Assembly (NCBI GenBank): GCA_964589775.1
Contig: CAZPUN010000037.1
Span: forward strand, 14,057-46,056
DNA length: 32,000 bases
Source of the DNA: an uncultured archaeon
Lineage (GTDB): Archaea; Asgardarchaeota; Thorarchaeia; Thorarchaeales; CAZPUN01
Reading direction: 5' to 3'
Shown here: piece after piece, positions 1,758 through 19,662 of the stretch
How the letters are laid out: every line of letters starts with the position of its first letter
Position numbering within the stretch: position 1 is the first letter of the stretch
Notes under the pieces: generated by a model
Database searches by the model: none
The model's input: the letters and a program-made list of their open reading frames with translations, nothing else
Told to the model about the DNA's origin: nothing
Program-made: the position numbers and the translations under genes

Positions 1758-3317
1758 TTATTTTTTAGGCCATGTCAATAACTTAAGTGGCTCGGGTAAC
1801 TTATCGCCAATTATTCTGCGAATCTCTTTAGGCCAATTATCATAATCAAACCCATAGCGAATTAGAAATACATACGCCCAACGTGATGGCCCAATTCCAG
1901 TACAACCAGTCCAAACAGTTCTCTTGTTCTTATCCTTAAAGTGAAATCGATTAGCATAGAAATCAGTATGTACATGGAATGATGCAATTTCAAGTTCTGC
2001 CTCGGGACGACTAATAGTCTTGAACGGTAGAAGTGCAGTTAGATCATATGTTTTTACAAATTCGGAAGATTCAGATTCAACATTGCCAGAATGTTCAAGA
2101 TAAACTGCAGTCGTCGCATCAATTCGATATTCTAGATCAAATATTTTATCGATCACATTTTCAGCTAAATCAAGTAGTTTATCTCGGATTTCAATGACTT
2201 TTTCTGGGCTAGAAAGATATACAAATTCCAATCTGTGAAATTCATTTAGCCGCTCAATTCCTTTTAATCCACCGCCCTCATAACGCCAAGTTGGACCATT
2301 CCTATCAAAATATCGTATAGGATTTTCAATGAATTTATCAATATCCATTTTTTCGCCACTGAATATTTCATAAAATGGTTCACACTGGGCATATGCAAGA
2401 CCGTATGCAGGCGCTTTTAATTTTGTACGTAGTAATTCTTCTTGAGGCGAGCCCGTAATTTCAACTAGATCAATGTAATCTTCAAAGTCTTTTGCATTAC
2501 GGGATATAGGTGGAGATACCCAGAATAATTCGTAAGGAATTGCCAAGTGCCCTTTTTTCATTTGAACTTCAATAGGTACTAATCGGGGAAGAAAAACTTC
2601 GACAAATCCTGCAGGTTTGACTATTTTCTCAATTACTAATTGTTCAATCGCTCTAAGTAATGCAGCATATGGAGGTAAGATCTGCCACACACCAGCAGCC
2701 GGAAATTCCTTTATCCAACCTAATTTTAATAGATCACGGGTTGGATCTTTGTCTAATACATACTTATCCAATTTTGGAGAACTTCTACGAATTGTACGGG
2801 AATATGCAGCTTTACCTTTGATACTTTGAGCGCGAACTTTTTCATGAATTCGTTTAATAATACGATCAACATAATTCTTTCTAAGTCCTTCTTCATCAAT
2901 TCCTTCAATTTCTAATTTTACATGCTTTCCATCAATTTCTAAAGATTTTGAGAACGGAATAGTAATTGATTCAATGGGTTCGGTGTCTAATTCAAATTCT
3001 ACTAATAACTCATCAATCTCAATGTTTCTTAATCCAATGTGATATTTACGGCCCAGGTCGGATACCAAACTATTCTTGAAGCGAAGCACAGCTACATGAG
3101 CACGCAACCTTGTTCCGCTAATAATATGAAGATATAGACTATCATCACGAATTTCCCATGAGGTGATTTTGGCACCTTCATCAAGCTGGTCTTTAGGAAT
3201 TCCTTTCGTAAATAACTTTTCATTTGCATTGTCGACAAATTCCTTTATGAACTCTGCACCTTCTTTCGGGAATGGACCACTGAATTTCATATGAACTTTC
3301 ATATCAATTTTGAACAT
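1758..3317 (-). CDS. serS: Seryl-tRNA synthetase, methanogen (type 2, Zn-dependent) form
   Basis: Large N-terminal tRNA-binding domain (SGTRLRAHVAVLR...GRKYHIGLR). Motifs AQCEPFY, DRNGPTWRYEGGG..GIERLNEFHRLE and WTGCTGIG..RW...GFDYDNWP. Start moved from the ORF-track 3356 to ATG 3317 (MFKIDM). Confidence 0.93.
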   Translation of the reverse strand: MFKIDMKVHMKFSGPFPKEGAEFIKEFVDNANEKLFTKGIPKDQLDEGAKITSWEIRDDSLYLHIISGTRLRAHVAVLRFKNSLVSDLGRKYHIGLRNIEIDELLVEFELDTEPIESITIPFSKSLEIDGKHVKLEIEGIDEEGLRKNYVDRIIKRIHEKVRAQSIKGKAAYSRTIRRSSPKLDKYVLDKDPTRDLLKLGWIKEFPAAGVWQILPPYAALLRAIEQLVIEKIVKPAGFVEVFLPRLVPIEVQMKKGHLAIPYELFWVSPPISRNAKDFEDYIDLVEITGSPQEELLRTKLKAPAYGLAYAQCEPFYEIFSGEKMDIDKFIENPIRYFDRNGPTWRYEGGGLKGIERLNEFHRLEFVYLSSPEKVIEIRDKLLDLAENVIDKIFDLEYRIDATTAVYLEHSGNVESESSEFVKTYDLTALLPFKTISRPEAELEIASFHVHTDFYANRFHFKDKNKRTVWTGCTGIGPSRWAYVFLIRYGFDYDNWPKEIRRIIGDKLPEPLKLLTWPKK

Positions 3318-3438
3318 TTTTTTCCGTCCCACATTTATTTTTGTATAAGAGTACAATAAATGAAATATAAGTCTTTTAATGCAGATAATAAATTGTGGTG
3401 TTTATCAATATTTTTCTTGTTAACAAATTGATTAAAAA

Positions 3439-4395
3439 ATGACGGCGCGTAGGAAAATCAAAGATGCGGATGTTAAGAAGATTTCGGATATTATATTAAA
3501 TCAAGGATTTACAACCATAAATGGGCTTGCAAATGCAACTGCACTAACATATACTACGATTAAGAAACTCCTTTTTGATCGCTTAAAACTAAGAATCAAA
3601 GGTTATATTGATTGGAAACGATTAGGATTAATTCCAATAATTATTAAATTTAGACACCCAAGACAATTACTCACAGGTGATTACGTCCTGGGAACATTCA
3701 TTTCAAATTTTCCAATTGGAGCATACTTTCAATATATGTTACTCCCACCAGAAGTTATTTTAGACTTAAAGCGAGCACTGCACTTAGTAGATGCGCAAGA
3801 TACAACAATGTACGATATTTCATTAATTAATTATGAAGTAAATTTACATAATGATTTTAATTTAAATTTAAGAACATTCAAGTATACTCCACTTGATGAA
3901 TGGAACGTTCACCAGATTACGCAAAAACATCTAGAAATATTGAGAGAACTCCATAAAAATTACTTAATACAAAATAAAATCATCTCAAGATTAATCAAAT
4001 TAAGCACGATAACAACGTCCAAGTATAAACAAGAATTAATAAAAAACAAAATATTGATTCCACTTTTTGTATTCTCTGAGGAACAAAAGGAATGGTATAT
4101 CTCAATATTTTCAAAGAGAAATAATGAAAAATCTTATTCTTTTCAAGATAAGTATGTCTTTGAACTGAGCAATTTGCAAACGGGAGAAAAGGAATATTTG
4201 ACTGTTTTTGGAGCTAAATATGTAAGTCCAAGAAAAATCATAGAGATATATTATGAAAAGAAAAAACAAGAAGAAGATCTATATTTATTCATGAATATAA
4301 ACAAGCTTAGATTTCCAGATATCAAGTTGTATGATGAAAAAAATAAAAAATGGATTTGGAATTATGAAAGCATTGGACTTTCTGATATCATCTGA
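3439..4395 (+). CDS. Putative transcriptional regulator with two winged-helix domains (Lrp/AsnC-like archaeal family)
   Basis: N-terminal HTH TTINGLANATALTYTTIKK followed by IDWKRLGL (Lrp-like 'vDy.klGl' linker). Second HTH ILRELHKN...ISRLIKLSTITTSKYKQELIKNKIL. Divergent from serS. Confidence 0.6.
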   Translation: MTARRKIKDADVKKISDIILNQGFTTINGLANATALTYTTIKKLLFDRLKLRIKGYIDWKRLGLIPIIIKFRHPRQLLTGDYVLGTFISNFPIGAYFQYMLLPPEVILDLKRALHLVDAQDTTMYDISLINYEVNLHNDFNLNLRTFKYTPLDEWNVHQITQKHLEILRELHKNYLIQNKIISRLIKLSTITTSKYKQELIKNKILIPLFVFSEEQKEWYISIFSKRNNEKSYSFQDKYVFELSNLQTGEKEYLTVFGAKYVSPRKIIEIYYEKKKQEEDLYLFMNINKLRFPDIKLYDEKNKKWIWNYESIGLSDII

Positions 4396-8277: not shown

Positions 8278-9153
8278 TCATCTTTTTATTATTTTATGAA
8301 TGTATTTATATAGCTCATCTTTTCGATTTGCCTCAGGAGATAAATACAAAGGAATCTCACTTTTCAAATAAGACATAGCTTCTTGTGCCTTAATAGTATA
8401 TATTTTTGAAGAATCTGGTGAAATGTAGTCTATGGCCTTCTTAAAGCGTTCACCACTATAAGGAAATACATGACCTGGAGCAACTACAAGTACTAAATCA
8501 ACACTATTTATTTCTTGAAAAGGCCATGCCAAATTATTAAAGCTTTCAATAATCAGAAAATCAGACTTGCCTTTTAAATAATTAAAAGTACTATAAATTG
8601 ATTCCTCATAATATCTATAAAATAAACTATTCAATTGTGCGATACTATCTACAACAATCAATTCATTAACATTTGAAAGTAATGCATCAGTCTCCTCATC
8701 AGATAAGAAAGTAACTCCTGTTTCGATAGGTTGCTTAGCATATAGAAAAATATTATGGATCGTGTTGTTTTTGTAAAGAGAATACCGTTCGATTGCAAAT
8801 ATAGAAACCCAGCTAGTCAAAAACAAATTATACATTGCAAAAGGTTCTGTAGGTGATTGTAATCTTGCAGGTACAGCAAGGCGATGATTTGGATTTATTA
8901 TTTCATATGGGATTCCACTTTTGGCTATGGTTTCTAGCTGGTCAATATCGCTACTGAATAACCTTTTTTGATCGATACACTTTTTTGTGTGGTCATATTT
9001 AAACCAATAATGGTGACCACTCTTAGGCTTATACGGAATAACTGAATAGCCCATTTCTTTAATGGTCTGAATGACGCGTTTAGCAACTGTAGTTTTTCCG
9101 GAATCAAACTCAAGCATACCTGTGATCAAGATTGTATAAGTCATCAAGCTCAC
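8278..9153 (-). CDS. Archaeal predicted P-loop ATPase (COG4028-like; BioD/CobQ-type Walker A)
   Basis: LITGMLEFDSGKTT, PYKPKSGHHYW, E.INP, LIIESFNN.AWP and VLVVAPG, all typical of this uncharacterised family. Confidence 0.75.
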   Translation of the reverse strand: MSLMTYTILITGMLEFDSGKTTVAKRVIQTIKEMGYSVIPYKPKSGHHYWFKYDHTKKCIDQKRLFSSDIDQLETIAKSGIPYEIINPNHRLAVPARLQSPTEPFAMYNLFLTSWVSIFAIERYSLYKNNTIHNIFLYAKQPIETGVTFLSDEETDALLSNVNELIVVDSIAQLNSLFYRYYEESIYSTFNYLKGKSDFLIIESFNNLAWPFQEINSVDLVLVVAPGHVFPYSGERFKKAIDYISPDSSKIYTIKAQEAMSYLKSEIPLYLSPEANRKDELYKYIHKIIKR

Positions 9154-9178: not shown

Positions 9179-9226
9179 AGAAAAATAAAAATATAAGAAA
9201 ATTTATCGCGGATTAAAACCGCGATA
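9179..9226 (-). terminator. Hairpin plus U-tract closing the hdr-sdh operon
   Basis: Perfect 8-bp inverted repeat TATCGCGG-N7-CCGCGATA (9204-9226), 5 nt after the stop codon, followed on the minus strand by TTTTCTTATATTTTTATTTTTC. Confidence 0.7.
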
Positions 9227-9231
9227 TGCAT

Positions 9232-10866
9232 TTAGAAAATGTCAATTGTTCTTGCAATAGTTTCTTTTCTGCGATAATCAGGCAGTAACATAGGAGCTTT
9301 ACGAGTGGGCGGGATTCCGGCGTTTTGAAGTTCAGTGATATAGTCTTTGACATGTTGTAAAGTGAGCTTGCCAAGCTTTACCTTCTTCGCTTTCTTTGCA
9401 GCATGAATTCCAGCACGTCTGCCAAATACACTGATTTCAAGTAATGAGTTACCCATCAGACGGTTTCTGCCATGAACACCACCACTTGTCTCACCAGCGG
9501 AGTATAGATTAGGAACCTGTGTTTCAGCATTTGCATTAATTATTATTCCACCGTTCATATAATGTAATGTTGGAAATACAAGGATTGGATCTTCAGCCAT
9601 ATTAATTCCGAATCGCTTAAACATACGAAACATAGCCGGTAGTTCTTTTTGAATGGTTCCTTCACCATGAATTACTTCAATCAATGGAGAATCCAGCCAC
9701 ACTCCACGCATGCCGGTAGGAGTGATAATGCCATTATTTCGCTCATAACATTCACGTATTATAACAGAAGACTCAACATCTCGTGTTTCCAGCGGATATG
9801 TAAATTGCTCGCCAAATTTGTTTAATAGCTGCCCACCTAAACCACGGACCTTTTCAGTAATTAATAATCCAACAATCTGCTCAGGATAAGCAGCACCTGT
9901 TGGATGATACTGTACGGCGTCTAAGAATATTGTTTTTGCGCCAGCACGATATGCCATAACTACGCCATCCATTGTAGCACCATAGTGGTTTGTTGTTGGA
10001 AAGCCTTGTACATGTAATCTGCCAAATCCACCAACGGCCATAATTGTAGTTTTTGCACGTACAACATGATACTCTTCAGTTTCCATATTGAATAATACTG
10101 CACCTGCAACTTGTCCTTTATCGTCTTTAATTAATTCAACTGCAGGAGAGAATTCAATAACAGGAATGTCAAGATTCTGTACTTCATCACGTAATGTTTT
10201 CATGATTTCTCCGCCAGAGTAGTCACGTGCAGAATGCATACGTTTTCTACTAGTTCCACCACCGTGTTTTGTACGCATGGTTCCATCAGGTTCTTTATCG
10301 TACATGACTCCAAGTTCTTCATGCCATTTAATAATTAAAGGAGCATCCATAACAAGAGCTTCTACAAGTTCAGGAATGTTATAGAAGTGTCCGCCACCCA
10401 TTACATCAAGATAATGAATCATGGGAGAATCATTTGGTTTATCTGCAGCTTGAATTCCACCTTGCGCCATCATAGTATTAGCGTCGCCATGGCGTAATTT
10501 TGTTGCAATCATTACATCTGCGCCATTGTATTTTGCCCAAAGTGCAGCAGTAGAACCTGCGCCACCACCACCTAGAACAAGCACATCCACGTCATATTCG
10601 ATATCAGTAAGATCAATTTCATCAGGATCAATATGTGGATATGCTTCTAACAAGTCGACAACTTCGTGATTCATTTTGTCGCCCTTATTGGGACCAACTT
10701 TAACAGCACGCTTTGCTTCAGGTTTGTAGTCAGGGTGGTACTTGTGAAGAACTTCTTGAATCTCATCTTCAGTCAACCGGCGATATACTTCATTAAGTCT
10801 TTTATCCCGGGTAGAATGAACTTTTTCAATTAATTCACGCATATAATCAGGATATCCATCACTCAT
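9232..10866 (-). CDS. Fumarate reductase/succinate dehydrogenase flavoprotein-like subunit (SdhA/FrdA/TfrA/NadB superfamily)
   Basis: GGGGAG; ANTMMAQGGI; QYHPTG; LITEKVRG.GG; LETRD; HYMNGG; AGE.SGGVHGRNRLMGNSL. About 90-aa N-terminal extension and a short C-terminus. Start ATG 10866 follows GAGGTGA RBS (ORF track starts at 10875). Confidence 0.9.
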   Translation of the reverse strand: MSDGYPDYMRELIEKVHSTRDKRLNEVYRRLTEDEIQEVLHKYHPDYKPEAKRAVKVGPNKGDKMNHEVVDLLEAYPHIDPDEIDLTDIEYDVDVLVLGGGGAGSTAALWAKYNGADVMIATKLRHGDANTMMAQGGIQAADKPNDSPMIHYLDVMGGGHFYNIPELVEALVMDAPLIIKWHEELGVMYDKEPDGTMRTKHGGGTSRKRMHSARDYSGGEIMKTLRDEVQNLDIPVIEFSPAVELIKDDKGQVAGAVLFNMETEEYHVVRAKTTIMAVGGFGRLHVQGFPTTNHYGATMDGVVMAYRAGAKTIFLDAVQYHPTGAAYPEQIVGLLITEKVRGLGGQLLNKFGEQFTYPLETRDVESSVIIRECYERNNGIITPTGMRGVWLDSPLIEVIHGEGTIQKELPAMFRMFKRFGINMAEDPILVFPTLHYMNGGIIINANAETQVPNLYSAGETSGGVHGRNRLMGNSLLEISVFGRRAGIHAAKKAKKVKLGKLTLQHVKDYITELQNAGIPPTRKAPMLLPDYRRKETIARTIDIF

Positions 10867-10876
10867 TTGATTCACC

Positions 10877-11602
10877 TCATTTTTCTATGTCCCTTGCTTC
10901 ATAGAGTTTCAAAAGCTCTTCCCGGGACATCTTCTTTAGTTTCTCCATTTCTTTGTCAAACTTTCCAGATTCTATTTCCTTTACACGCTCAGCGAGGTGC
11001 TTTGCAGGCTTTGCAATATGTCGAGCATATAACCGCCGTGCAAGTAAGGCAATATAATATTGAGGCATTTCAGCGGGACAACGTGATGCACAAAGACCAC
11101 ACATAATACAATCAAATGATAGATCTGCTGTCTTTGCAATGTCACCACGAAGTGCCGTATTTATATAGTCCATGACTGAAAGTTCCTGAGGACATATTTT
11201 TGTACAAGAGTTACAACTGACACATCGTGCCGCTTCAGGGTAATATTTCAAAATTGTATTTACAGTTGGTTCGAGTTCTTGAATGTTGTATTTTGCTTTA
11301 TTTGCAGGTACAAAAGGTATCTGCGCAAGATACATGCCATCTTGTACAACAGTCTGACAGGCTAATCCACTTCGTAACTTATAGTCACCTTTTAACCGAT
11401 ATATTGTTGCACATGCACCGCAAAAACCAGCTCGGCAACCGGCACCTCGTATATATCGATAACCTGCATACTCAACGGCTTTCATAATGGTAAGATTTTC
11501 AGGAACTTCATACTTCTTACCCATTATGAAAATATTTACCATCTTTACAGGTATAGATTCATCTTGTGATTTTTTCTTAGTTTTTGATGCAGCCTTAACC
11601 AT
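10877..11602 (-). CDS. SdhB/FrdB-like iron-sulfur subunit ([2Fe-2S] + 2x[4Fe-4S])
   Basis: GCRAGFCGAC...LACQ ([2Fe-2S]); CVSCNSCTKICP and CIMCGLCASRCP. Start could be 11602, 11605 or 11611. Confidence 0.88.
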   Translation of the reverse strand: MVKAASKTKKKSQDESIPVKMVNIFIMGKKYEVPENLTIMKAVEYAGYRYIRGAGCRAGFCGACATIYRLKGDYKLRSGLACQTVVQDGMYLAQIPFVPANKAKYNIQELEPTVNTILKYYPEAARCVSCNSCTKICPQELSVMDYINTALRGDIAKTADLSFDCIMCGLCASRCPAEMPQYYIALLARRLYARHIAKPAKHLAERVKEIESGKFDKEMEKLKKMSREELLKLYEARDIEK

Positions 11603-11612
11603 CATTAACACC

Positions 11613-12746
11613 TTACAATGGTTCTAGCTCGTGTTCTTTAAATGTACTTAGAGGGACTGGCTCATCTAAGCTACGACCGGCGACATAGTCAAACACATTC
11701 TGTACATTGAATGCAACTGTCTTAAATATACGGCCAATTGGAATATCCGATGGACATGCTTGTTCACACATACCGCAACTGACACATGATGTTGCCATGT
11801 GTGCCATTCTGCCAATATGGAACAGGAATCGATCAGTAGGCATTGTCATTGCATCTCTTGCATCGAGCCACATATCGAATGTTCTGCCTTCGTATTCAAC
11901 AGCTGATGATTCAAAGAAACATTCTTTACAGAAACAAATAGGACATGCAGTCTTACAGTTATGGCAGTTGATACATGATGCAAACGTCTTTGATAATCCT
12001 TCGACTCCAGCAATGGATTTATTGAATTCATCGAAATACTCATCTCGAACCTTTGTTCTACGGTCTATCCACTCAGTCACCGCGTCCTCTCGGCCCACAG
12101 GGGGCTTTTCTTCTATTTGTATTTCCATCGCACCTAGCAGCGATAGTCCCTTCTCAGTAGTCACTTTAAGGAGGACTTCCTTATTGAAGTCCAAGCCAAT
12201 TAATCCTAATACAAAATCAGTATTTAAAGGCTCAGGATATTCACACATTTTACATATTTCGCGTGAATTTTGTATATTTTGTCCCGATGAAAATGCGTCA
12301 AAAACCCACGAGGACGTGTCTGTACCACCCTTAATAAGCGCTTTATACGTAGAAATATTGATTGTTCCAGGGCAATCAACGCCAAAAAATATCAAATTTT
12401 CAGGGTTTATTTGCTTTAATTTAATTAATTCAATCGTAGCACGCATTTCGCATGGTTTTAGAACAACCGCAATTTTCTTAGATGGGGCGCCATTCCTTGT
12501 TAAATTCTTGAGTAACGTTGCACTATTTACAGCCATAACTGGACTGAATGCATTAGCATTCTCAAGTTCTTTAGGATTCGTAATTAGGCGCTGCATGTAA
12601 GAGGTTTTATCAAGTGTTTCTACTGGGATCATAACTGCATCTACAATTTTCTTCTCAAGAAGAGATTTGAAAAATGCATTCACTGAAGTTCTAGGGTTGC
12701 TATCGGTTACTGGTATCTTTGCATATTTTGTCAACTTATTCACCAC
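11613..12746 (-). CDS. FdhB/FrhB-like (F420 hydrogenase/dehydrogenase beta family) Fe-S protein
   Basis: LLEKKIVDAV; KPCEMRA.IEL.K..QI; GVDCPGT; CKMC; CINCHNCKTACPICFCKEC; FHIGR..HM..SCVSCGMCEQACP. Confidence 0.88.
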   Translation of the reverse strand: MVNKLTKYAKIPVTDSNPRTSVNAFFKSLLEKKIVDAVMIPVETLDKTSYMQRLITNPKELENANAFSPVMAVNSATLLKNLTRNGAPSKKIAVVLKPCEMRATIELIKLKQINPENLIFFGVDCPGTINISTYKALIKGGTDTSSWVFDAFSSGQNIQNSREICKMCEYPEPLNTDFVLGLIGLDFNKEVLLKVTTEKGLSLLGAMEIQIEEKPPVGREDAVTEWIDRRTKVRDEYFDEFNKSIAGVEGLSKTFASCINCHNCKTACPICFCKECFFESSAVEYEGRTFDMWLDARDAMTMPTDRFLFHIGRMAHMATSCVSCGMCEQACPSDIPIGRIFKTVAFNVQNVFDYVAGRSLDEPVPLSTFKEHELEPL

Positions 12747-12747
12747 C

Positions 12748-13170
12748 CTAAATCGTACCTAGCTTTTTAATTTCGCTTGGACCTAATTGCTTCAATTCTT
12801 CAGTAAATTCGGTTACTACATCTGCAAATCGCTTTCCTTCACTTGCAGAAATCCATTCAAGCCTAACGCGCTTTTCATTTAGCCCAAGTGTTTTTAGAAT
12901 TGATTTTACTATCGCAACTCTACGGCGAGCTTTATAGTTTCCAGAAACATAGTGGCAATCGCCAGGATGACAACCTCCAATCATTACACCATCAGCGCCT
13001 TCTAATAGTGCTCTAATGATGTAAGAGGTGTCTACGGAACCACTACACATAACACGAATAGGTCTAATATTAGGTGGATAGTGAATTCGAGATGTACCCG
13101 CAAGATCTGCTGCAGATGAAGTACACCAATTACAGAAGAATCCAACAATTTTTGGTTCAAATTCGCTCAT
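12748..13170 (-). CDS. mvhD: MvhD (hydrogenase delta subunit, [2Fe-2S] adaptor to HdrA)
   Basis: FEPKIVGFFCNWC..AADLAG; IRVMCSG; GADGV.IGGCHPGDCHY..GN; R.RLEWISASEG. Confidence 0.96.
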   Translation of the reverse strand: MSEFEPKIVGFFCNWCTSSAADLAGTSRIHYPPNIRPIRVMCSGSVDTSYIIRALLEGADGVMIGGCHPGDCHYVSGNYKARRRVAIVKSILKTLGLNEKRVRLEWISASEGKRFADVVTEFTEELKQLGPSEIKKLGTI

Positions 13171-13194
13171 TATGGATATTCCTCCAGTTAATTA

Positions 13195-16100
13195 TCATGA
13201 TTCTTTATTATTATTAGTTGAACCCCAAATGAGTGAATCAATAGCTGCGAACATTTGTGGTTCAGTAAATAATCGTAATTTAGCAGCTCCGCTGGGGCAT
13301 GCAGCCGCACATGCACCACAGCCATCACATATAGTTTCACGTACAACTGAGACTTTACGCTCAGGATCAATAAAGCGCGCATCATAAGGACACGCATCAA
13401 CACATAATGCACAACCAGAACAGAAACGTTCAATTGTATATGCGATTAGTCTTCCAGAAGGTGCTTGAACTTTCTTCTTTGATACAATGAATAATGCACT
13501 TTGGGCTGCGGAGTCAGCCAAACGTATAGTGTCTTCAACTGTCCGAGGCGAATAGGAAAGCCCAGCAACAAATACCCCATGTGTTCCAAGATCATATGGT
13601 CTGAATTGAATGTTTATGAATTCATATGGATCATCAGGCGTATCGAAAAAGCCTTCAGGGTCCAGATATGTTTCAAACTTTGTTGCAAGCTCTTTACTTA
13701 CGGAAATGTCTGGGAGGACCGATGTGGCAATCAGTAAGGTATTTACTGTAAGTTCTTGTTGCTTTCCAGAGTAGAAGTCTGTTAAAGATATTGTTACATT
13801 GGAACCATCTGAATTTATTTTTACACCGTAATCAGGATCAATTTTCATGAATTTAACACCCATATCCAGAGCTTTTCGATAATATTTATCAAATAGTCCA
13901 TATGAAATAGTCTTGTTATAAATTACAAAGACATCCTGCTCTGGATTTTGTTCTTTGACATGTATTGCACTACGTAGCATGTGTGGCGTGCATAATCGAG
14001 CGTTTGATACATAGTTTGGTTTTCTAATGCATTCATCATTTATAATCACAATAGAACCAAGTTTCTTCGAATATGATTTATCTTCACGTATATGTTTATC
14101 AAAATCTAAAAGGCTGATGATATTCTGATCATTGATTAGATCAAGTGATTTTGGCTTTGCACCAATTGCGATTATTACTACACCGTATTTTATGGTAACT
14201 CTCTTATCGCCTTCATCAGTCTTAATTAATAGATTTGATTGAAATCTTCCAGCCCATCCGGTGACATCTAATACAGATGCATTAAGATATATGGAAACAC
14301 GCTCATGAGTAGATATTTTATTTACTAAGTTTTTAGTGTATTCAGATATTTTTACATCATCTAATTCCAAAGATATTTCACTAGCAGTCCCACCAAGATG
14401 GTCTGAAGATTCAACCAGAATTACCTCATAACCACGATCTGCGAGAATTTCAGCAGACCTAAGTCCAGCTAAACCGCCACCAATAATGAGAACATGCTTA
14501 TCGTATTCTTCAGTAGGGATGCCATATGGCTCAGAATGAATTGCTTTTTCAATGGCAAATCTTGTCAAATCTATAGCTTTTTGTGTTGCCGCATCTTTAT
14601 CATCATGAACCCATGCGACAAATTCGCGTATCTGAACAAGTTCGCTTAATGCAGGATTTAGACCACCTTGTGCAACAACTTGTTGTAATTTACGACCTTT
14701 TGCGTTTATACCACAACCAGCTAGAATTACACGATTAATTGAAGGATCTGCAGATACTTGTTTTACTTTCGCAATGCCATCTTTGAGACATAGATAATCA
14801 ACAAATTCAACTTTTGAAACACTATAGACAGAAGATAATGCATCTTTCACTCTATCATAATCAATTGTTTTATCGAATTGGCCTCCACATTTACAGAATA
14901 AGACTGCTGTACTAGGTTCTTCAAATTCAACATTACGGAATTTTGGTTGTGGCTTAGGTTTGACATATTTTGAACTTAGATTCGAAATAACGTGAGGAAT
15001 TACAGCAGTACCATCATAAATCGATTCAGAATCGCCCAAAGGACGCACGAATTCACCTATTGCAAAAATACCATCACGTGTAGTAGCACCGGAACTTAGA
15101 GGGCGTACTTTGCAGAATCCAGTTTCGTCCAATTCAATTCCAAATCGTTTAGCCAATTCATTCCAATTAGGGTCAGGTTTTTGACCGGGAGATATTACTA
15201 AAAGGTTTACAGAGAGTGATTTTGGTTCGCCATGATCAACATATTCTATTAAAATATCATCATTTGATTTGGAAACATCAAGCTTATTCGTTTCAATAAT
15301 TTTTATTCCGTTATTCTGCGCACGCTCATAGTAAGCGATGTGCCCCTTACCATATATGCGCAGATCTTTTACAAAAACATATACGTCAATTTCAGGATTT
15401 AATTTCTTTATTTGCATTGCTTCTTCAAGAACTAACATATCAGAACTATAAGAAGCAACTTCAGTATCTGAAAAGCCAACTGTTGAAATTAATCCGACTG
15501 ATCCGGGAATTTTACCATCAGATGGACGAGATAAAGATTCCAACTGAGGCCCCGTACCCATATACCAAAGCTCAAGCTCAGAACTTTTTATGACATTTGG
15601 ATGAGACCCGTATAGGAATTTAGGCAACATTTCATCGGATTCATGATATTCTGGACCAAGAACGATCGCACCAACATTTAGTGTTTCCTCAACTTCCTTA
15701 GGTTCGAGATTTATTGCATTGGTTGGACATACGTTTACGCATTCGCCACATTTCGTGCAATTGTCAAAATCCACATAATAATCAATAGGAGTAACAGGTC
15801 GCAATACGGCAACCATAGCCTTCCTTTCAATGGCTCTACCACGTATATCTTGATCAGTTACAGAAATAGGACATACATCCAAACATTTGTTACAGCCAAT
15901 ACAAAGGTTGGGATCTACAGATTGCTCAGTTCTTTTGATTTTTACTTGGAAATTACCAGCTTCGCCAGTTACGGAAATAACATCGGCTTGATTGATAAGT
16001 TCAACATGTGGAATCTTGTTGATTACAAATCTTAAACAAGTATTACAGATCGCACGAGGATGTTGTAAGCCTAATTGAGACGGAATCTCACCAAGAAACT

Positions 16101-16209
16101 TTCCTTTATTTATAATGAGTGCGCGATATCCAGATTTTCCAAGATTCGCTGCTGCTCTCTGGGCTGCAACATTAGTTCCATATACGAGTACCGTATCCAT
16201 ATTGCTCAT
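13195..16209 (-). CDS. Large tandem HdrA-like flavo-Fe-S protein with degenerate motifs
   Basis: Module 1: degenerate Rossmann VYGTNVAA, CNTC, inserted ferredoxin (CIGCNKCLDVCP, CTKCGECVNVCP). Central HdrA N-domain (FCKCGG, LC, AGC, IRE). Module 2: IIGGGLAG. C-terminal ferredoxin (CSGCALCVDACPY, CDGCGACAAACP). Confidence 0.85.
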   Translation of the reverse strand: MSNMDTVLVYGTNVAAQRAAANLGKSGYRALIINKGKFLGEIPSQLGLQHPRAICNTCLRFVINKIPHVELINQADVISVTGEAGNFQVKIKRTEQSVDPNLCIGCNKCLDVCPISVTDQDIRGRAIERKAMVAVLRPVTPIDYYVDFDNCTKCGECVNVCPTNAINLEPKEVEETLNVGAIVLGPEYHESDEMLPKFLYGSHPNVIKSSELELWYMGTGPQLESLSRPSDGKIPGSVGLISTVGFSDTEVASYSSDMLVLEEAMQIKKLNPEIDVYVFVKDLRIYGKGHIAYYERAQNNGIKIIETNKLDVSKSNDDILIEYVDHGEPKSLSVNLLVISPGQKPDPNWNELAKRFGIELDETGFCKVRPLSSGATTRDGIFAIGEFVRPLGDSESIYDGTAVIPHVISNLSSKYVKPKPQPKFRNVEFEEPSTAVLFCKCGGQFDKTIDYDRVKDALSSVYSVSKVEFVDYLCLKDGIAKVKQVSADPSINRVILAGCGINAKGRKLQQVVAQGGLNPALSELVQIREFVAWVHDDKDAATQKAIDLTRFAIEKAIHSEPYGIPTEEYDKHVLIIGGGLAGLRSAEILADRGYEVILVESSDHLGGTASEISLELDDVKISEYTKNLVNKISTHERVSIYLNASVLDVTGWAGRFQSNLLIKTDEGDKRVTIKYGVVIIAIGAKPKSLDLINDQNIISLLDFDKHIREDKSYSKKLGSIVIINDECIRKPNYVSNARLCTPHMLRSAIHVKEQNPEQDVFVIYNKTISYGLFDKYYRKALDMGVKFMKIDPDYGVKINSDGSNVTISLTDFYSGKQQELTVNTLLIATSVLPDISVSKELATKFETYLDPEGFFDTPDDPYEFINIQFRPYDLGTHGVFVAGLSYSPRTVEDTIRLADSAAQSALFIVSKKKVQAPSGRLIAYTIERFCSGCALCVDACPYDARFIDPERKVSVVRETICDGCGACAAACPSGAAKLRLFTEPQMFAAIDSLIWGSTNNNKES

Positions 16210-16221
16210 TTTTGTACCTCC

Positions 16222-18165
16222 TTAATAGTCCCTCGCAAGAATTTCCACCATATCGAGAATTTGGTCCTTTCTGAAGTTTTGTACTTGTGCCGCACCTGAA
16301 GGACATGCAGCAGAACATGCAGCACACCCTTCACAAAGGGTTTCATTAACTTCTGCTTTCTTAGTTTTTGGATTCACTTTTATTGCGCCATAAGCACATG
16401 CGGCTTCACAAAAACCACAGCCTGCGCAAATAGTATGATCAACGGTTGCAACAATTGGTTCATGCTCAATTTGCTCCTTTGAGAACAATGCCAATACCTT
16501 TCCAGCAGCACCACTAGCTTGTGAAACAGTATCAGTAATATCCTTTGGAAATTGAGCTACTCCTGCTATGTAAATACCGGGCGTCATTGTTTCTAAAGGT
16601 CTAAGCTTAAGATGAGCCTCCTTTAACCAGCCATATTCATCAGTTGTAATTCTTAACTTGGAAGCTAGCTCTCTGATACCCGCACTTGGGAGCATCGCAG
16701 GAGCCAATACAACTAGATCTGCATCAACCTCAATGCTACGACCAGTTAATGTATCTGAGCCATATACTTTTACGACACCGTTTTCCTCAATCACTTTAGA
16801 AACTTTACCTCGAAGATACAATACACGGTCTTCTTCCATGACACGTTGCACAAATTCTTCGTATCCCTTACCATTAGAACGTATATCTATGTAGAAAACA
16901 TAGGCCTGCCCATCAGGCACAGCATGCTTGTATAATAAAGCTTGTTTTGCAACATACATACAACAGATACGAGAACAATATGCTACACCTAGATTTGGAT
17001 CTCTAGATCCAGCACATTGAATAAATACAACATCTTTTGGAACCTTTTTATCAGATGGTCTAAGAACTTCACCACCAGTTGGTCCAGATGCTGCCAATAA
17101 TCGTTCGAATTGTATTGCATCAATTACGTCAGGATATTCTCCGCCACCATACTCTTTAAAGTGCTCCATAGGCATTAAGTCAAATCCAGTAGCTACAATA
17201 ATTGCACCTACTTTGACATCAATATATTCATCAGTCTGGTCAAAATTAATTGCTTTAGGTTCGCATTTTCTCATACATACCTTACACTTAAGACAATTTT
17301 CCATATCAATGGTATATACACTTGGTACGGCTTGATCAAATGGACGATATATTGCTTTACGAATACTCAAATTACGATCAAATTCATTTGGAACTTTCTT
17401 CGGACAGATCTTTGCACATTCACCGCAGCCAAGACATTTATCATAATCAACATATGATGCTTTCTTCTTTATTGTAACATCAAAATTGCCCACAAATCCA
17501 TTAACTTCTTCAACTTCAGAGTATGTATAAAGATGTATATTGGGGTGCTGGCTCACAGCAGTCATTTTGGGAGTCATTATACATTGCGGACAATCAAGTG
17601 TTGGAAACGTTTCAGATAATTGTGCCATTCTACCGCCAATAGTAGGACTCTTTTCAACTAAATAGACTTCATATCCACCATCAGCAATATCTAAGGCGGC
17701 TTGCATACCTGCAATACCACCACCAATGACAAGTGCTTTACGAGTCAATGGTACCTTTAATGGAAGTAAAGATGCATTCGATTTTAGCCGCTCAATGGTG
17801 GCTTGAATGATCCTAATAGCTTTTTTAGTTGCAGTCTCGGGCTCATGTTCATGTGGCCATGAAACTTGTTCACGAATATTTGCAATTTCAACACGATAAG
17901 GATTCAAACCAGCTGCAGCCGCAGCATTGCGAAATGTCTTTTCATGTAATGTAGGAGAACAATTCGCGACAACTACACCATCTAAATTAAACTCTTTTAT
18001 GCGGTCGCGCATAAGCTTTTGCCCGGGTTCAGAACACATATAAACATAAGTCTCAGCATGTACGACATTAGGATAATCTTTGATAACATCACGAACTTTG
18101 TTTACATCAATAGTACCAGCTATGTTTAAACCGCAATGGCAGATGAAAACACCAATTCTCTTCAT
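16222..18165 (-). CDS. hdrA: Heterodisulfide reductase subunit A (canonical)
   Basis: IGVFICHCG.NI; NCSP; NIREQ.SW; IGGGIAG; TFPTLDCPQCI; inserted ferredoxin; QFER; QCAGSRD...YCSRICCMYVAKQA; C-terminal 2x[4Fe-4S]. Confidence 0.96.
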   Translation of the reverse strand: MKRIGVFICHCGLNIAGTIDVNKVRDVIKDYPNVVHAETYVYMCSEPGQKLMRDRIKEFNLDGVVVANCSPTLHEKTFRNAAAAAGLNPYRVEIANIREQVSWPHEHEPETATKKAIRIIQATIERLKSNASLLPLKVPLTRKALVIGGGIAGMQAALDIADGGYEVYLVEKSPTIGGRMAQLSETFPTLDCPQCIMTPKMTAVSQHPNIHLYTYSEVEEVNGFVGNFDVTIKKKASYVDYDKCLGCGECAKICPKKVPNEFDRNLSIRKAIYRPFDQAVPSVYTIDMENCLKCKVCMRKCEPKAINFDQTDEYIDVKVGAIIVATGFDLMPMEHFKEYGGGEYPDVIDAIQFERLLAASGPTGGEVLRPSDKKVPKDVVFIQCAGSRDPNLGVAYCSRICCMYVAKQALLYKHAVPDGQAYVFYIDIRSNGKGYEEFVQRVMEEDRVLYLRGKVSKVIEENGVVKVYGSDTLTGRSIEVDADLVVLAPAMLPSAGIRELASKLRITTDEYGWLKEAHLKLRPLETMTPGIYIAGVAQFPKDITDTVSQASGAAGKVLALFSKEQIEHEPIVATVDHTICAGCGFCEAACAYGAIKVNPKTKKAEVNETLCEGCAACSAACPSGAAQVQNFRKDQILDMVEILARDY

Positions 18166-19055
18166 TCCGAGCCAGCTCCTAACAAATTCTTTTCAAGTAA
18201 TAATGGTTTGGGATCTGTATAATTATACTCGAGACCTAATGCAGATTCATCTAGTCCAAATGCAAGAGCCATCAATTGTGTGAAATAAAAGACCGGAATT
18301 GGATGAAAACCGGGATGCTCTCTCGCCACATCCATCTGAAATTTATCTAAATTATAATCACACAGTGGACATGAGAGTACCAATGCCTCGCCACCTCTTG
18401 CCACTGCAGAGGAGATAATTTTGTATGTTCGTTCCTTAATAATATGTTTACGTTCCACTGTATGATATGCACCACAACATTCAGTTTTCATTGGATCATT
18501 GATTACTTCAGCACCAAGAGCCTTCAATAATTTCTCCATTATAGTTGGAGATTCAGCATCGTCAATACCGACATCTCTAGGACGAAGTAATGTACATCCA
18601 TAATATGGTACAACTTTTAGACCTTTTAGTGGCTTTTTAACGAATTGCTTTATTTTTTCGAATCCAACATCTTGGTCTAAGACTTCTAGAAAATGAACTA
18701 CTTCAACGCCTGCTTGATATTTTTCAGGTTCTTCATACATGTAATTGTTAATTTTATCAAGCACTTCCTTATTTTTTTTCACTAACAAATTTGAACGCTT
18801 TAATGTGTTATAACACATAGAACATAAAGTAACCACTCGGTCTTTCTTCATTTCTTGAACACGCAACAAATTACGAATAGGAGCAACTTGATGCATTACA
18901 TCATCACTTGCAAGAGAGAATACAGTACCACAGCAAGTCCAGCGTGGTAATTCAATAAATTCAATGTCAAGAACCTTTGCAGAAGCAATAGCTGAGATTT
19001 CAAAGTTCTTAGCAGTACTCTTAACAGTACATCCTGGATAATATGCTAGCTCCAT
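18162..19055 (-). CDS. hdrB: Heterodisulfide reductase subunit B
   Basis: Two complete CCG domains: YYPGC/WTCCG/CSMC and YYGC/ECCG/CPLC. C-terminal PVFYFTQL..LA. ATGA overlap with hdrA. Confidence 0.95.
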   Translation of the reverse strand: MELAYYPGCTVKSTAKNFEISAIASAKVLDIEFIELPRWTCCGTVFSLASDDVMHQVAPIRNLLRVQEMKKDRVVTLCSMCYNTLKRSNLLVKKNKEVLDKINNYMYEEPEKYQAGVEVVHFLEVLDQDVGFEKIKQFVKKPLKGLKVVPYYGCTLLRPRDVGIDDAESPTIMEKLLKALGAEVINDPMKTECCGAYHTVERKHIIKERTYKIISSAVARGGEALVLSCPLCDYNLDKFQMDVAREHPGFHPIPVFYFTQLMALAFGLDESALGLEYNYTDPKPLLLEKNLLGAGSE

Positions 19056-19095
19056 TTTATTGCCTCATTCAAATTGTTTTGTTTATTAAAATAAA

Positions 19096-19503
19096 TTAGG
19101 GGGTATATTTCCTAAATGCGCTAACAAGTGCAATTGGGGGTAATGATTCTAAATCCTCTGAAGGCAAATCTCTAACTCTACTCATATCAATATTTTGTCT
19201 TAATTTTAATACACGTAATGCTTCCATTATTTTTGCCAGATCAACATCTTTGGGACAACGAACAGTACACGTGTAACAGGAAGCGCACATCCAGATAGAT
19301 TTCGAATTCAAAACTTCATCTTGTAATCCTAGTTGTACATATCGAATAACTTGATTGGGAAGTAAATCCATCTCTGAAACAATAGGACAACCTGCTGAAC
19401 ACTTACCACAATGATAGCATGCAAAGACATTTTGCCCACTGATTTCTTCGACTTTCTCGATAAATTCTTTTTTTGTCAATTTAGAAGATAATATGGTTCG
19501 CAT
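19096..19503 (-). CDS. hdrC: Heterodisulfide reductase subunit C (short form)
   Basis: CYHCGKCSAGCP and IWMCASCYTCTVRCP. Start ATG 19503 after GGTG (ORF track extends to 19548). Confidence 0.92.
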   Translation of the reverse strand: MRTILSSKLTKKEFIEKVEEISGQNVFACYHCGKCSAGCPIVSEMDLLPNQVIRYVQLGLQDEVLNSKSIWMCASCYTCTVRCPKDVDLAKIMEALRVLKLRQNIDMSRVRDLPSEDLESLPPIALVSAFRKYTP

Positions 19504-19662
19504 GGTAAACACCAAACCACTTAATGATGATAGCCACCAAAAAATCACGTAAAAGATTTTCGGTATAAAATAATTTTCATACTAATTTACAAATAGATTA
19601 ATAAAATCCTTAGCTAATGATTATGGAAATAATAAAAAAAGAAGGAAAATATGATGTGTTTC

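What the first reader, a model, noticed from the sequence alone, without database searches (positions are those of the whole stretch)
9232..19503. Eight-gene Hdr-MvhD-FdhB-SdhBA operon: candidate soluble, possibly electron-bifurcating, heterodisulfide reductase wired to a fumarate/succinate flavoprotein
Seen: hdrC, hdrB, hdrA, a second 1004-aa hdrA-like gene, mvhD, an fdhB/frhB-like gene, an sdhB-like gene and an sdhA-like gene are co-oriented, with gaps of -4 to 40 bp, and closed by a hairpin/U-tract. The operon lacks mvhA/mvhG, fdhA, flxABC and sdhC/D. Established: in characterised HdrABC complexes MvhD docks a donor module (MvhAG or FdhAB) and HdrA bifurcates electrons to ferredoxin and to the disulfide at HdrB; methanogen thiol:fumarate reductase TfrAB links CCG-domain thiol oxidation to an SdhA-like subunit. 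Inference: here the SdhAB-like pair takes the place of FdhA on the FdhB-MvhD arm, giving a cytoplasmic complex that couples thiol/disulfide, ferredoxin and fumarate/succinate. It could use fumarate as a high-potential sink or drive succinate oxidation without a membrane. I know of no biochemically characterised complex with this composition, though similar clusters may have been noted in genomes.
Basis: partly seen in the sequence, partly recalled or inferred. Interest (0 to 1): 0.9.

Follow-up and report, generated by a model that had tools for sequence, protein, structure and literature searches.

The report
Hdr-linked soluble fumarate reductase operon
An uncultured non-methanogenic archaeon carries one tight eight-gene operon joining a membrane-free fumarate-reductase-like enzyme to heterodisulfide-reductase (Hdr) electron-splitting proteins; the linkage is real and widespread, was already proposed from other genomes, and I found no biochemical test of it.

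Summary
Eight co-oriented minus-strand genes (gaps -4 to 40 bp) run from 19503/19548 to 9232 and end in a hairpin plus T-tract: HdrC, HdrB, HdrA, a 1004-aa fused double HdrA, MvhD, an FdhB/ElpB-like Fe-S protein, a TfrB-N/SdhB-like Fe-S protein and a FrdA/TfrA-like flavoprotein.

The flavoprotein keeps the dicarboxylate active-site motifs. The genome has a separate true NadB. In other genomes the Fe-S/flavoprotein pair sits beside fumarase, succinyl-CoA synthetase and 2-oxoacid:ferredoxin oxidoreductase genes, so fumarate/succinate is the likely substrate.

In 45 related loci with enough flank, the constant set is HdrC-HdrB-FeS-flavoprotein. The donor genes vary: MvhAG, a FlxA-like NAD(P)H module, the double HdrA with FdhB-like protein, or none.

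The idea is published as a hypothesis for tubeworm symbionts and Pseudoclostridium thermosuccinogenes. This scan has also found the same kind of cluster at least 12 times on other DNA. I found no biochemical characterisation.

The window's variant has no evident electron-donor site. I rate it a new variant of a known, predicted kind, of moderate interest.

The parts
19096..19548 (-). HdrC-like subunit with two [4Fe-4S] motifs. The likely true start is the ATG at 19503 (135 aa).
   Evidence: Fer4_8 45.5 bits; CoB_CoM_SS_C 81.7 bits, below the cut-off of 160. Eight Cys. Homologues are 118-139 aa. A TATA-like TTTATA lies about 60 nt upstream of 19503.
18162..19055 (-). HdrB-like subunit with two CCG domains, the sites of the non-cubane [4Fe-4S] clusters
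   Evidence: CCG 74.8 bits in two stretches; it scores alike to HdrB (174 bits) and to the type-E SdhE anchor (171 bits), both below cut-off; all ten CCG cysteines are invariant in 26 homologues; it belongs to the lineage of HdrB found beside the Fe-S/flavoprotein pair elsewhere.
16222..18165 (-). Canonical HdrA: FAD, N-terminal cluster domain, inserted and C-terminal ferredoxin domains
   Evidence: 705 bits against 5odc_A over residues 3-646. A Lys aligns with Lys409 of 5odc_A. HdrA2 model 809 bits (cut-off 1100; that model includes a fused MvhD domain which is a separate gene here).
13195..16209 (-). 1004-aa fused, domain-permuted double HdrA (BamE-like architecture)
   Evidence: three stretches match HdrA, namely residues 51-359 to chain 190-511, 430-612 to chain 2-185, and 855-993 to chain 511-649. 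Module 1 has a degenerate GxGxxG (YGTNVAA) and Glu where HdrA has Lys409. Module 2 keeps GGGLAG. BamE of class II benzoyl-CoA reductase is described as a fused HdrA dimer with one bifurcating FAD.
12748..13170 (-). MvhD-type [2Fe-2S] adaptor
   Evidence: FlpD 189.2 bits over the full length. VhuD 136.8 bits.
11613..12746 (-). FdhB/ElpB-like Fe-S protein, probably without flavin; a relay on the MvhD arm
   Evidence: AF2 pLDDT 83.7. Foldseek 7bkb_E (FdhB in Fdh-Hdr-Fmd) TM 0.76 and 8rvu_E (ElpB in Elp-Hdr) TM 0.73; profile E 1e-55 to 1.7e-48 to FdhB/ElpB; 15 invariant Cys. The GGAVT motif of FdhB is not kept (window has PRTSVNAFF).
10877..11611 (-). Fe-S subunit of the fumarate reductase module: one [2Fe-2S] and two [4Fe-4S] motifs, like the N-terminal half of TfrB
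   Evidence: CRAGFCGAC...C plus two CxxCxxCxxxCP motifs, all invariant in 27 homologues; weak match to TfrB residues 18-172 (37 bits). It lies next to the flavoprotein in 45 of 45 loci.
9232..10875 (-). FrdA/TfrA-like flavoprotein: non-covalent FAD, about 76-95 extra N-terminal residues, shortened C-terminus
   Evidence: FAD_binding_2 234 bits over residues 97-478, with no Succ_DH_flav_C hit; best model TfrA 327 bits (cut-off 718). HPTG His, TE, TRD Arg, HY His and NRL Arg are kept, and the covalent-FAD His is Asn. Z 35.8 to soluble flavocytochrome c3 fumarate reductase and Z 33.4 to E. coli FrdA.
9204..9226 (-). Terminator-like hairpin with T-rich tail closing the operon
   Evidence: 8-bp stem with 5 GC pairs.: -13.2 kcal/mol, z -3.8. 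The sequence was read.

Best explanation
The operon encodes a cytoplasmic fumarate reductase complex with no membrane anchor.

The Fe-S protein and the flavoprotein together are a split relative of methanogen thiol:fumarate reductase TfrAB. They reduce fumarate to succinate at a non-covalently bound FAD. A dedicated HdrC-HdrB pair feeds them electrons, and that pair is fed by a canonical HdrA.

As in solved Hdr complexes, HdrA would take electron pairs from a mid-potential donor on its MvhD arm. It would send one electron downhill through HdrC/HdrB to the Fe-S protein, the FAD and fumarate. It would send the other uphill to ferredoxin. Fumarate thus stands in for, or follows, the CoM-S-S-CoB disulfide of methanogens.

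In this window the MvhD arm consists of MvhD, a probably flavin-less FdhB/ElpB-like relay and a BamE-like fused double HdrA. The donor is not identified. Candidates are F420H2, NAD(P)H or a protein partner.

Shown here: gene content, operon structure, conserved cofactor motifs, conserved linkage and pathway neighbours. Inferred: subunit contacts, direction, bifurcation, and whether HdrB passes electrons directly or through a thiol.
For: Substrate:
- The dicarboxylate active-site motifs are kept.
- The fold is that of fumarate reductases (Z 35.8 and 33.4).
- TfrA is the best-scoring curated family.
- The genome has its own NadB, class I fumarase and SucCD.
- In other genomes the pair lies directly beside fumarase (7 loci), SucCD (3-4 loci) and 2-oxoacid:ferredoxin oxidoreductase subunits (12-16 loci, several phyla).

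Wiring, in 45 loci with at least 8 kb upstream: FeS 45, HdrB 41, HdrC 40, MvhD 31, FdhB-like 22, HdrA 20.
- Eleven loci have only HdrC-HdrB-FeS-flavoprotein.
- The donor genes differ between lineages: MvhG/MvhA in Thermoplasmata, and a Fer4_22 protein with a PyrK/FlxA-like NAD-binding protein in Heimdall.
- HdrB and HdrC next to the pair elsewhere are closer to the window's copies than to this genome's Mvh-linked copies. Their HdrA and MvhD show the opposite pattern.
- All ten CCG cysteines of HdrB are invariant.

Bifurcation capacity:
- HdrA is 705 bits to solved HdrA, with a Lys at the position of Lys409.
- The FdhB-like protein matches the subunits that dock MvhD in two solved Hdr complexes.

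Precedents in print:
- TfrB is a fusion of an FrdB-like part and CCG domains (Heim 1998, cited in PMC11237513).
- BamD, an HdrBC-like protein, hands the high-potential electron directly to a partner flavoprotein (preprint).
- Flx-Hdr with tfrAB or frd clusters have been proposed to act this way.

The organism has no McrA (genome 96.75% complete), so CoM-S-S-CoB is not expected.
Against: - No donor site is evident in the operon. It has no MvhAG and no FlxA, and the FdhB-like protein lacks the GGAVT motif of F420-oxidising FdhB.
- In this window and in Chloroflexota the Fe-S/flavoprotein genes follow the FdhB-like gene, not hdrB.
- The Chloroflexota HdrB in the same eight-gene order is only 31-35% identical to the window's HdrB.
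- All scores to curated TfrA, HdrB and HdrC models are below their cut-offs.
- There is no transcript, protein or activity evidence.
- The direction (fumarate reduction or succinate oxidation) is not determined.
- The fully conserved CCG sites would equally suit a thiol/disulfide intermediate.
Confidence: 0.55

Rival explanations
1. First reader's wiring. The Fe-S/flavoprotein pair docks on the FdhB-like protein in place of FdhA. Succinate/fumarate then sits on the MvhD arm, while HdrB handles an unknown disulfide and HdrA handles ferredoxin. The complex would oxidise succinate without a membrane, or reduce fumarate with thiol plus reduced ferredoxin.
For: - The gene order FdhB-like, FeS, flavoprotein, with 1-bp gaps, is seen here and in Chloroflexota loci.
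- FdhB/ElpB in solved complexes bind a partner (FdhA/ElpA) at one end and MvhD at the other.
- This FdhB-like protein seems to lack its own flavin site, so it needs a partner.
Against: - Eleven of 45 loci have the pair with HdrCB and no FdhB-like or MvhD gene. The pair abuts hdrB in three of the four main architectures.
- In Heimdall loci the FdhB-like gene is followed by an NAD(P)H-type module instead.
- Succinate/fumarate at about +30 mV cannot be the mid-potential couple of an Hdr-type bifurcation.
- Confurcation of thiol and ferredoxin electrons onto fumarate would waste energy.
Confidence: 0.12
2. Thiol-mediated two-step system. HdrC-HdrB-FeS-flavoprotein is a true thiol:fumarate reductase, a split TfrAB, that oxidises an unknown low-molecular or protein dithiol. 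HdrA, MvhD and the other proteins re-reduce the resulting disulfide at the same or another HdrB.
For: - Both CCG motifs are fully conserved.
- TfrB works this way in Methanothermobacter (Heim 1998, cited).
- Bacillota carry the four-gene core without HdrA nearby.
- A Culexarchaeia cluster with SdhA and HdrBC also holds a GcvH-like gene.
- A DsrC-like mediator has been proposed for the symbiont cluster.
Against: - No thiol-carrier or cofactor-biosynthesis gene lies in or beside this operon.
- There is no McrA, and no ComA hit above the cut-off.
- Only one HdrB is in the operon, so oxidation and reduction of the same thiol pair at one site would be futile.
- BamD shows that HdrB-type clusters can serve a protein partner directly.
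Confidence: 0.17
3. The flavoprotein acts on another substrate, such as L-aspartate, another C4/C5 dicarboxylate or an enoate, and the fumarate reading is wrong.
For: - Its scores are below every curated cut-off.
- It has a unique N-terminal extension and a shortened C-terminus.
- Structural neighbours include urocanate reductase and ketosteroid dehydrogenases at Z 30-33.
- NadB models score 265 bits.
Against: - The fumarate/succinate catalytic motifs are all kept.
- A bona fide NadB is present elsewhere.
- Fumarase, SucCD and KOR genes are neighbours in many genomes.
- P. thermosuccinogenes, which makes succinate, expresses an operon of this composition. I could not test whether its genes are orthologous to the window's.
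Confidence: 0.08
4. A type-E-like, membrane-associated succinate:quinone oxidoreductase in which the HdrB-like protein is the monotopic anchor, as with SdhE. HdrA and its partners would be unrelated neighbours.
For: - HdrB scores 171 bits to the SdhE anchor model, equal to its HdrB score.
- The Fe-S subunit has a second [4Fe-4S] motif in place of a [3Fe-4S] motif. From memory, type E SdhB shares this.
Against: - The eight genes are packed with gaps of 40 bp or less, and HdrA, MvhD and the FdhB-like gene lie between hdrB and the Fe-S gene.
- HdrA or MvhD is linked in most archaeal and Chloroflexota loci.
- The covalent-FAD His typical of succinate-oxidising enzymes is absent.
- No SdhF-like gene is present.
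Confidence: 0.04

Closest known systems
Flx-Hdr-linked putative fumarate reductase clusters: flxABCD-hdrABC + korABCD + tfrAB of tubeworm symbionts and Thioflavicoccus mobilis (PMC6315080, PMC11636981), and the 'succinate operon' of Pseudoclostridium thermosuccinogenes (PMC7282089, citing Koendjbiharie and van Kranenburg 2019 preprint)
   Same: HdrABC plus an MvhD-type adaptor are encoded with a two-subunit, anchor-less fumarate reductase. The proposed role is the same: fumarate reduction coupled to ferredoxin reduction. They show the same pathway neighbours (fumarase, KOR) that I see around homologues of the window's genes. Like this operon, they are predicted and, as far as I found, never assayed.
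   Different: Those clusters have FlxABC, an NADH-oxidising module. The window has no FlxA-like or other donor-binding subunit. Instead it has a fused double HdrA and an FdhB/ElpB-like relay. The host here is an archaeon. I could not test whether their frd/tfr genes are orthologues of the window's pair, because those named genomes could not be fetched.
Thiol:fumarate reductase TfrAB of Methanothermobacter (Heim et al. 1998)
   Same: It is soluble, and TfrA is the best-scoring curated model for the flavoprotein. The same set of cofactor motifs is present, namely one [2Fe-2S], two [4Fe-4S] and two CCG domains. It serves the reductive branch towards succinate and 2-oxoglutarate.
   Different: TfrB is one polypeptide. 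Here the Fe-S part, an extra HdrC and HdrB are separate genes. Scores are far below the TfrA/TfrB cut-offs (327 against 718, and 37 against 385). The host has no McrA, so CoM-SH/CoB-SH are unlikely substrates. The flavoprotein has an N-terminal extension of about 76-95 residues.
MvhAGD-HdrABC, FdhAB-MvhD-HdrABC and ElpABC-HdrABC of methanogens (5odc, 7bkb, 8rvu; PMC12350162)
   Same: HdrA is about 58% identical over its full length. MvhD, HdrB and HdrC are present. The FdhB/ElpB-like subunit has the same fold and cysteine motifs.
   Different: There is no hydrogenase, FdhA or ElpA. The FdhB-like protein lacks the GGAVT motif. A fumarate-reductase pair and a second, fused double HdrA are added. 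The host is not a methanogen.
BamDEF module of class II benzoyl-CoA reductase (preprint 10.64898/2026.04.10.717634)
   Same: It contains a fused, domain-permuted HdrA dimer (BamE) with an MvhD-type adaptor. An HdrBC-like subunit passes the high-potential electron directly to a partner flavoprotein.
   Different: In BamE the N-terminal module carries the bifurcating FAD. Here the N-terminal module looks FAD-less, and a separate canonical HdrA is also present. The output enzymes differ. No BamE chain turned up in the PDB sequence search.

Membership tests
Thiol:fumarate reductase TfrAB | TfrA-type flavoprotein scoring above the curated TfrA model cut-off | tested here: not met
   NF004900 scores 327.5 bits against a cut-off of 718. 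It is still the best-scoring model.
Thiol:fumarate reductase TfrAB | Fumarate/succinate catalytic residues (two His, two Arg, Thr-Glu) in the flavoprotein | tested here: met
   alignment to E. coli SdhA 1nek_A: QYHPTG, LITEKVRG, TRD, PTLHYMNGG and GRNRLMGNSL are present. The TRD Arg was placed by eye, because HMMER offset that segment by four residues.
Thiol:fumarate reductase TfrAB | TfrB as a single polypeptide with an FrdB-like Fe-S part fused to two CCG domains | tested here: not met
   the Fe-S part (244 aa) and the CCG protein (297 aa) are separate genes about 6.5 kb apart. No CCG-fused form of this Fe-S subfamily was found at E <= 1e-20.
Thiol:fumarate reductase TfrAB | Uses CoM-SH and CoB-SH as reductant | not testable with these tools
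   Indirect only: there is no McrA and no ComA above the cut-off in a genome that is 96.75% complete.
HdrABC-type flavin-based electron-bifurcating complex | Full-length HdrA with FAD motif, N-terminal cluster domain, two ferredoxin domains and the Lys near the flavin | tested here: met
   705 bits against 5odc_A over residues 3-646, with a Lys aligned to Lys409. That Lys409 contacts N5 is from memory; the preprint read names such a lysine as a hallmark.
HdrABC-type flavin-based electron-bifurcating complex | HdrB with two complete CCG motifs and HdrC with two [4Fe-4S] motifs | tested here: met
   ten invariant Cys in HdrB and eight in HdrC. Scores to the curated HdrB and HdrC equivalogs are below their cut-offs.
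HdrABC-type flavin-based electron-bifurcating complex | A donor module on the MvhD arm with its own substrate site (MvhAG, FdhAB, ElpAB or FlxABC) | tested here: not met
   the operon has no hydrogenase, molybdopterin or NAD-binding subunit. The FdhB-like protein lacks the GGAVT motif. MvhAG lie in a separate cluster on contig C7.
HdrABC-type flavin-based electron-bifurcating complex | Demonstrated coupling of ferredoxin reduction to reduction of the high-potential acceptor | not testable with these tools
   This needs anaerobic enzyme assays.
Flx-Hdr-linked fumarate reductase ('succinate operon' type) | FlxABCD NADH-oxidising module encoded with HdrABC | tested here: not met
   Only the FlxD/MvhD-type gene is present. 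FlxA-like PyrK-type genes exist elsewhere, on C18 and C30, and inside the Heimdall versions of the cluster.
Flx-Hdr-linked fumarate reductase ('succinate operon' type) | Anchor-less two-subunit fumarate reductase in one operon with HdrABC | tested here: met
L-aspartate oxidase NadB | Scores above the NadB equivalog cut-off and is the genome's NAD-pathway enzyme | tested here: not met
   TIGR00551 scores 265 bits against 452.75. The genome's real NadB is at C55 (744 bits against 629). The window protein always has an Fe-S partner.
Type E succinate:quinone oxidoreductase (SdhABEF) | SdhE-type CCG anchor above the model cut-off, an SdhF subunit, and quinone as partner | tested here: inconclusive
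   NF042965 scores 171 bits against a cut-off of 500. No SdhF-like gene was seen. Quinone use cannot be tested here.

The most novel reading that the evidence does not exclude
Fumarate is the physiological high-potential acceptor of Hdr-type bifurcation in this and many other non-methanogens. The window's version would run two HdrA-type modules in series, a canonical HdrA and a BamE-like fused dimer, fed through a flavin-less FdhB-like relay by a donor of a kind not yet seen with Hdr. That would give a membrane-free way to make reduced ferredoxin from fumarate reduction in an Asgard-like archaeon.
Probability: 0.25. Interest if true: 0.7.

Novelty: new variant of a known kind. Interest (0 to 1): 0.5.

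Why it matters
Genome papers on Asgard, Thermoplasmatota, Bathyarchaeia and many anaerobic bacteria report abundant, highly expressed HdrABC with 'an unidentified heterodisulfide' as acceptor (for example PMC11291895).

If fumarate is that acceptor, these organisms gain reduced ferredoxin from a common metabolite without a membrane or quinones. The same enzyme would supply both succinate and the ferredoxin needed by 2-oxoglutarate synthase. This would change carbon and energy budgets drawn for such lineages.

The family is large and well conserved, at 60-73% identity across domains. Cultured carriers exist, such as Desulfofundulus thermobenzoicus and D. australicus, so the question can be tested directly.

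Tried and rejected
1. Complex prediction. I submitted HdrC + HdrB + FdhB-like + Fe-S protein, with the Fe-S protein as the scored partner. The tool's verdict was 'no answer'. Scores were 0.70, 0.73 and 0.64. Replacing the partner gave 0.00, but replacing the FdhB-like chain still gave 0.70, so the job failed the tool's specificity mark. I do not use it for or against any binding. The cap left no second job to test the Fe-S protein with each chain alone.

3. A link to serine biosynthesis. In D. thermobenzoicus the core cluster follows SerC, SerA, a His_Phos_1 phosphatase and SerS. These neighbours occur in that locus only. A His_Phos_1 gene does follow the flavoprotein in nine Heimdall/Thor loci, which remains unexplained.

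4. Rosetta-stone fusions of the Fe-S protein. I found only two: one with the flavoprotein and one with an FNR-like NAD-binding domain. Neither was with HdrB or the FdhB-like protein, so they say nothing about the wiring.

5. Recent transfer from Chloroflexota, which share the gene order. The flavoprotein tree places the window as sister to all other archaeal sequences, not inside a bacterial clade. Still, only 3 of 40 genomes of the same order carry it, at 54-55% identity, so its history is unresolved.

6. Sigma-70-type promoter scan. It found fewer sites than chance (33 against 38.9) and does not apply to an archaeon.

7. Orthology with the P. thermosuccinogenes and symbiont frd/tfr genes. 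I could not fetch those genomes by name.

Full report
**Observation**

The window belongs to a 2.16-Mb archaeal metagenome-assembled genome, 96.75% complete. The archaeal assignment rests on neighbouring genes: a thermosome, an archaeal-type ThrRS and HerA. A 97%-identical sister genome has an Arf-family GTPase gene nearby, which hints at Asgard.

Eight minus-strand ORFs run from 19548 (or the ATG at 19503) to 9232. The gaps between them are 40, -4, 12, 24, 1, 1 and 1 bp.

Upstream, the thermosome gene ends in a T-tract and is followed by AT-rich, TATA-like sequence. Downstream, an 8-bp GC-rich hairpin with a T-rich tail lies at 9226-9204 (folding z -3.8). The sister genome has the same eight genes in the same order.

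**What each gene is**

- **HdrC:** two [4Fe-4S] motifs.
- **HdrB:** two CCG domains. All ten cysteines are invariant in 26 homologues.
- **HdrA:** the 647-aa protein aligns end to end with solved HdrA 5odc_A (705 bits). It keeps a Lys at the position of Lys409.
- **Double HdrA:** the 1004-aa protein matches HdrA in three permuted stretches. Its first module has a degenerate dinucleotide motif and Glu at the Lys409 position. Its second module keeps GGGLAG. This fused, permuted HdrA-dimer layout is what a 2026 preprint describes for BamE of class II benzoyl-CoA reductase.
- **MvhD:** full length (189 bits).
- **FdhB-like protein:** the 377-aa protein was only a weak Pfam FrhB hit. [quoted passage not shown] A profile of 20 homologues hits these at E 1e-55 to 1e-48. 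It keeps 15 invariant cysteines. It does not keep the GGAVT motif of FdhB. From memory, that motif belongs to the flavin site, so this protein may be a pure Fe-S relay.
- **Fe-S protein:** the 244-aa protein has one [2Fe-2S] and two CxxCxxCxxxCP motifs, all invariant. This is the cluster set of the N-terminal half of TfrB.
- **Flavoprotein:** FAD_binding_2 covers residues 97-478. The best curated model is TfrA, at 327 bits against a cut-off of 718. The fumarate/succinate catalytic motifs are kept, and Asn replaces the covalent-FAD His. The fold matches soluble fumarate reductases at Z 35.8 and E. coli FrdA at Z 33.4. The first 76 or so residues are unmatched.

**Substrate**

- The genome has a true NadB elsewhere (744 bits against a cut-off of 629). 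The stand-alone aspartate oxidase reading therefore fails.
- The genome also has class I fumarase, SucCD and several 2-oxoacid:ferredoxin oxidoreductases. It has no McrA.
- In related loci the Fe-S/flavoprotein pair lies directly beside pathway genes:
  - fumarase in 7 loci (Bacillota, Anaerolineae);
  - SucCD in 3-4 loci;
  - KOR-like alpha, beta and gamma subunits in 12-16 loci (Thermoplasmata, Heimdall, Thor, Bathyarchaeia).
- These are the steps malate to fumarate to succinate to succinyl-CoA to 2-oxoglutarate.

**Conservation and wiring**

The flavoprotein family is large: 591 confirmed hits among species-representative genomes. It is 60-73% identical across archaeal and bacterial phyla, including cultured Desulfofundulus.

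In 45 loci with at least 8 kb upstream, the counts are:

| Gene upstream of the flavoprotein | Loci (of 45) |
|---|---|
| Fe-S gene (adjacent) | 45 |
| HdrB | 41 |
| HdrC | 40 |
| MvhD | 31 |
| FdhB-like | 22 |
| HdrA | 20 |
| Double HdrA | 12 |

The main architectures are:
- HdrC-HdrB-FeS-Flav alone (Bacillota).
- KOR-HdrA-MvhD-MvhG-MvhA-x-HdrC-HdrB-FeS-Flav (Thermoplasmata).
- MvhD-FdhB-like-Fer4_22-PyrK/FlxA-like-HdrA-HdrC-HdrB-FeS-Flav (Heimdall).
- The window's order (Chloroflexota).

So the acceptor side is constant and the donor side is modular.

This genome also has a second cluster on contig C7: KOR-HdrA-MvhD-MvhG-MvhA-protease-HdrC-HdrB, with no Fe-S/flavoprotein pair. The HdrB and HdrC that sit beside the pair in other genomes are closer to the window's copies than to the C7 copies. 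Their HdrA and MvhD are closer to the C7 copies.

From this I place the fumarate reductase on the HdrCB arm. This is a split, extended TfrB arrangement.

Thermodynamics, using textbook potentials, agree. Fumarate at about +30 mV suits the high-potential branch. It cannot be the mid-potential couple of the MvhD arm.

Gene order in this window alone would fit either wiring. The complex prediction gave no usable verdict.

**Prior knowledge**

- Rubin-Blum et al. 2019 (PMC6315080) described conserved interspersing of flxABCD-hdrABC with korABCD and tfrAB. They proposed direct electron delivery to both enzymes.
- A 2024 study added expression data for that cluster (PMC11636981).
- Koendjbiharie et al. 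2020 (PMC7282089) describe a 'succinate operon' of fumarase, Flx-Hdr and fumarate reductase in P. thermosuccinogenes. It is induced about 4-fold under CO2 limitation. They cite their 2019 preprint on a novel, possibly bifurcating fumarate reductase.
- The Culexarchaeia paper notes SdhA next to HdrBC.
- My searches found no purification or assay.
- Earlier reports of this scan reached the same reading on at least 12 other genomes, including one with the double-HdrA/FdhB-like architecture.

**What is particular here**

- The host is an archaeon, and the flavoprotein branches as sister to all other archaeal members in my sample.
- Distribution in its own order is patchy: 3 of 40 genomes, at 54-55% identity.
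- The operon has no recognisable donor site.
- A CofE gene suggests that F420 is made, but the FdhB-like protein lacks the motif expected for F420H2 oxidation.
- The donor, the direction, the role of the intact CCG sites and bifurcation itself remain inferences.

**Verdict**

The operon is real and conserved. It is a new variant of a predicted but untested kind. Interest is moderate.

Noticed in passing
G000 contig C7:40500-49800 (L085:7501-16810, minus strand): A second Hdr cluster in the same genome: KOR delta/alpha/beta/gamma-HdrA-MvhD-MvhG-MvhA-protease-HdrC-HdrB. This is the order that in Thermoplasmata ends with the Fe-S/flavoprotein pair, but here it stops at HdrB. The genome's only pair is the one in the window.
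   Followed up: partly
L002:1447-3063 and 3269-4174 (G000 contig C55): The genome's true L-aspartate oxidase NadB is followed directly by an FrhB/FpoF-like gene with an N-terminal 2x[4Fe-4S] domain. This may be an F420- or ferredoxin-linked electron outlet for NadB in an anaerobe.
   Followed up: no
window 13195-16209 (-): The fused double HdrA has a probably FAD-less first module (YGTNVAA, and Glu at the Lys409 position). By my manual alignment, its second module has an intact FAD motif and Arg at that position. It always co-occurs with MvhD and the FdhB-like gene in the 12 loci that carry it.
   Followed up: partly
window 8278-9153 (-): A 291-aa protein just downstream of the terminator has no Pfam or NCBIfam hit. 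It carries a P-loop-like DSGKTT motif. It is conserved in the sister genome only and is not linked to the cluster elsewhere.
   Followed up: partly
L057:11719-12288 and eight other Heimdall/Thor loci: A His_Phos_1 (phosphoglycerate-mutase-like phosphatase) gene directly follows the flavoprotein gene in nine Asgard loci. Its role is unknown.
   Followed up: partly
P0125 (521 aa, ENA metagenome): In one metagenomic protein, a homologue of the Fe-S subunit (57% identity) is fused to an FNR-like FAD_binding_6/NAD_binding_1 module. If real, this is a directly NAD(P)H-fed form of the enzyme.
   Followed up: no
window 19503-19548: The longest HdrC ORF starts at a GTG and adds a hydrophobic 15-residue N-terminus that homologues lack. 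The ATG at 19503 is the more likely start, so HdrC is not a membrane protein.
   Followed up: partly
L083:21004-21564 (sister genome): An Arf/Ras-family small GTPase gene lies about 10 kb from the operon in the 97%-identical sister genome. This is consistent with an Asgard host. The taxonomy of the window's genome was not otherwise established.
   Followed up: no
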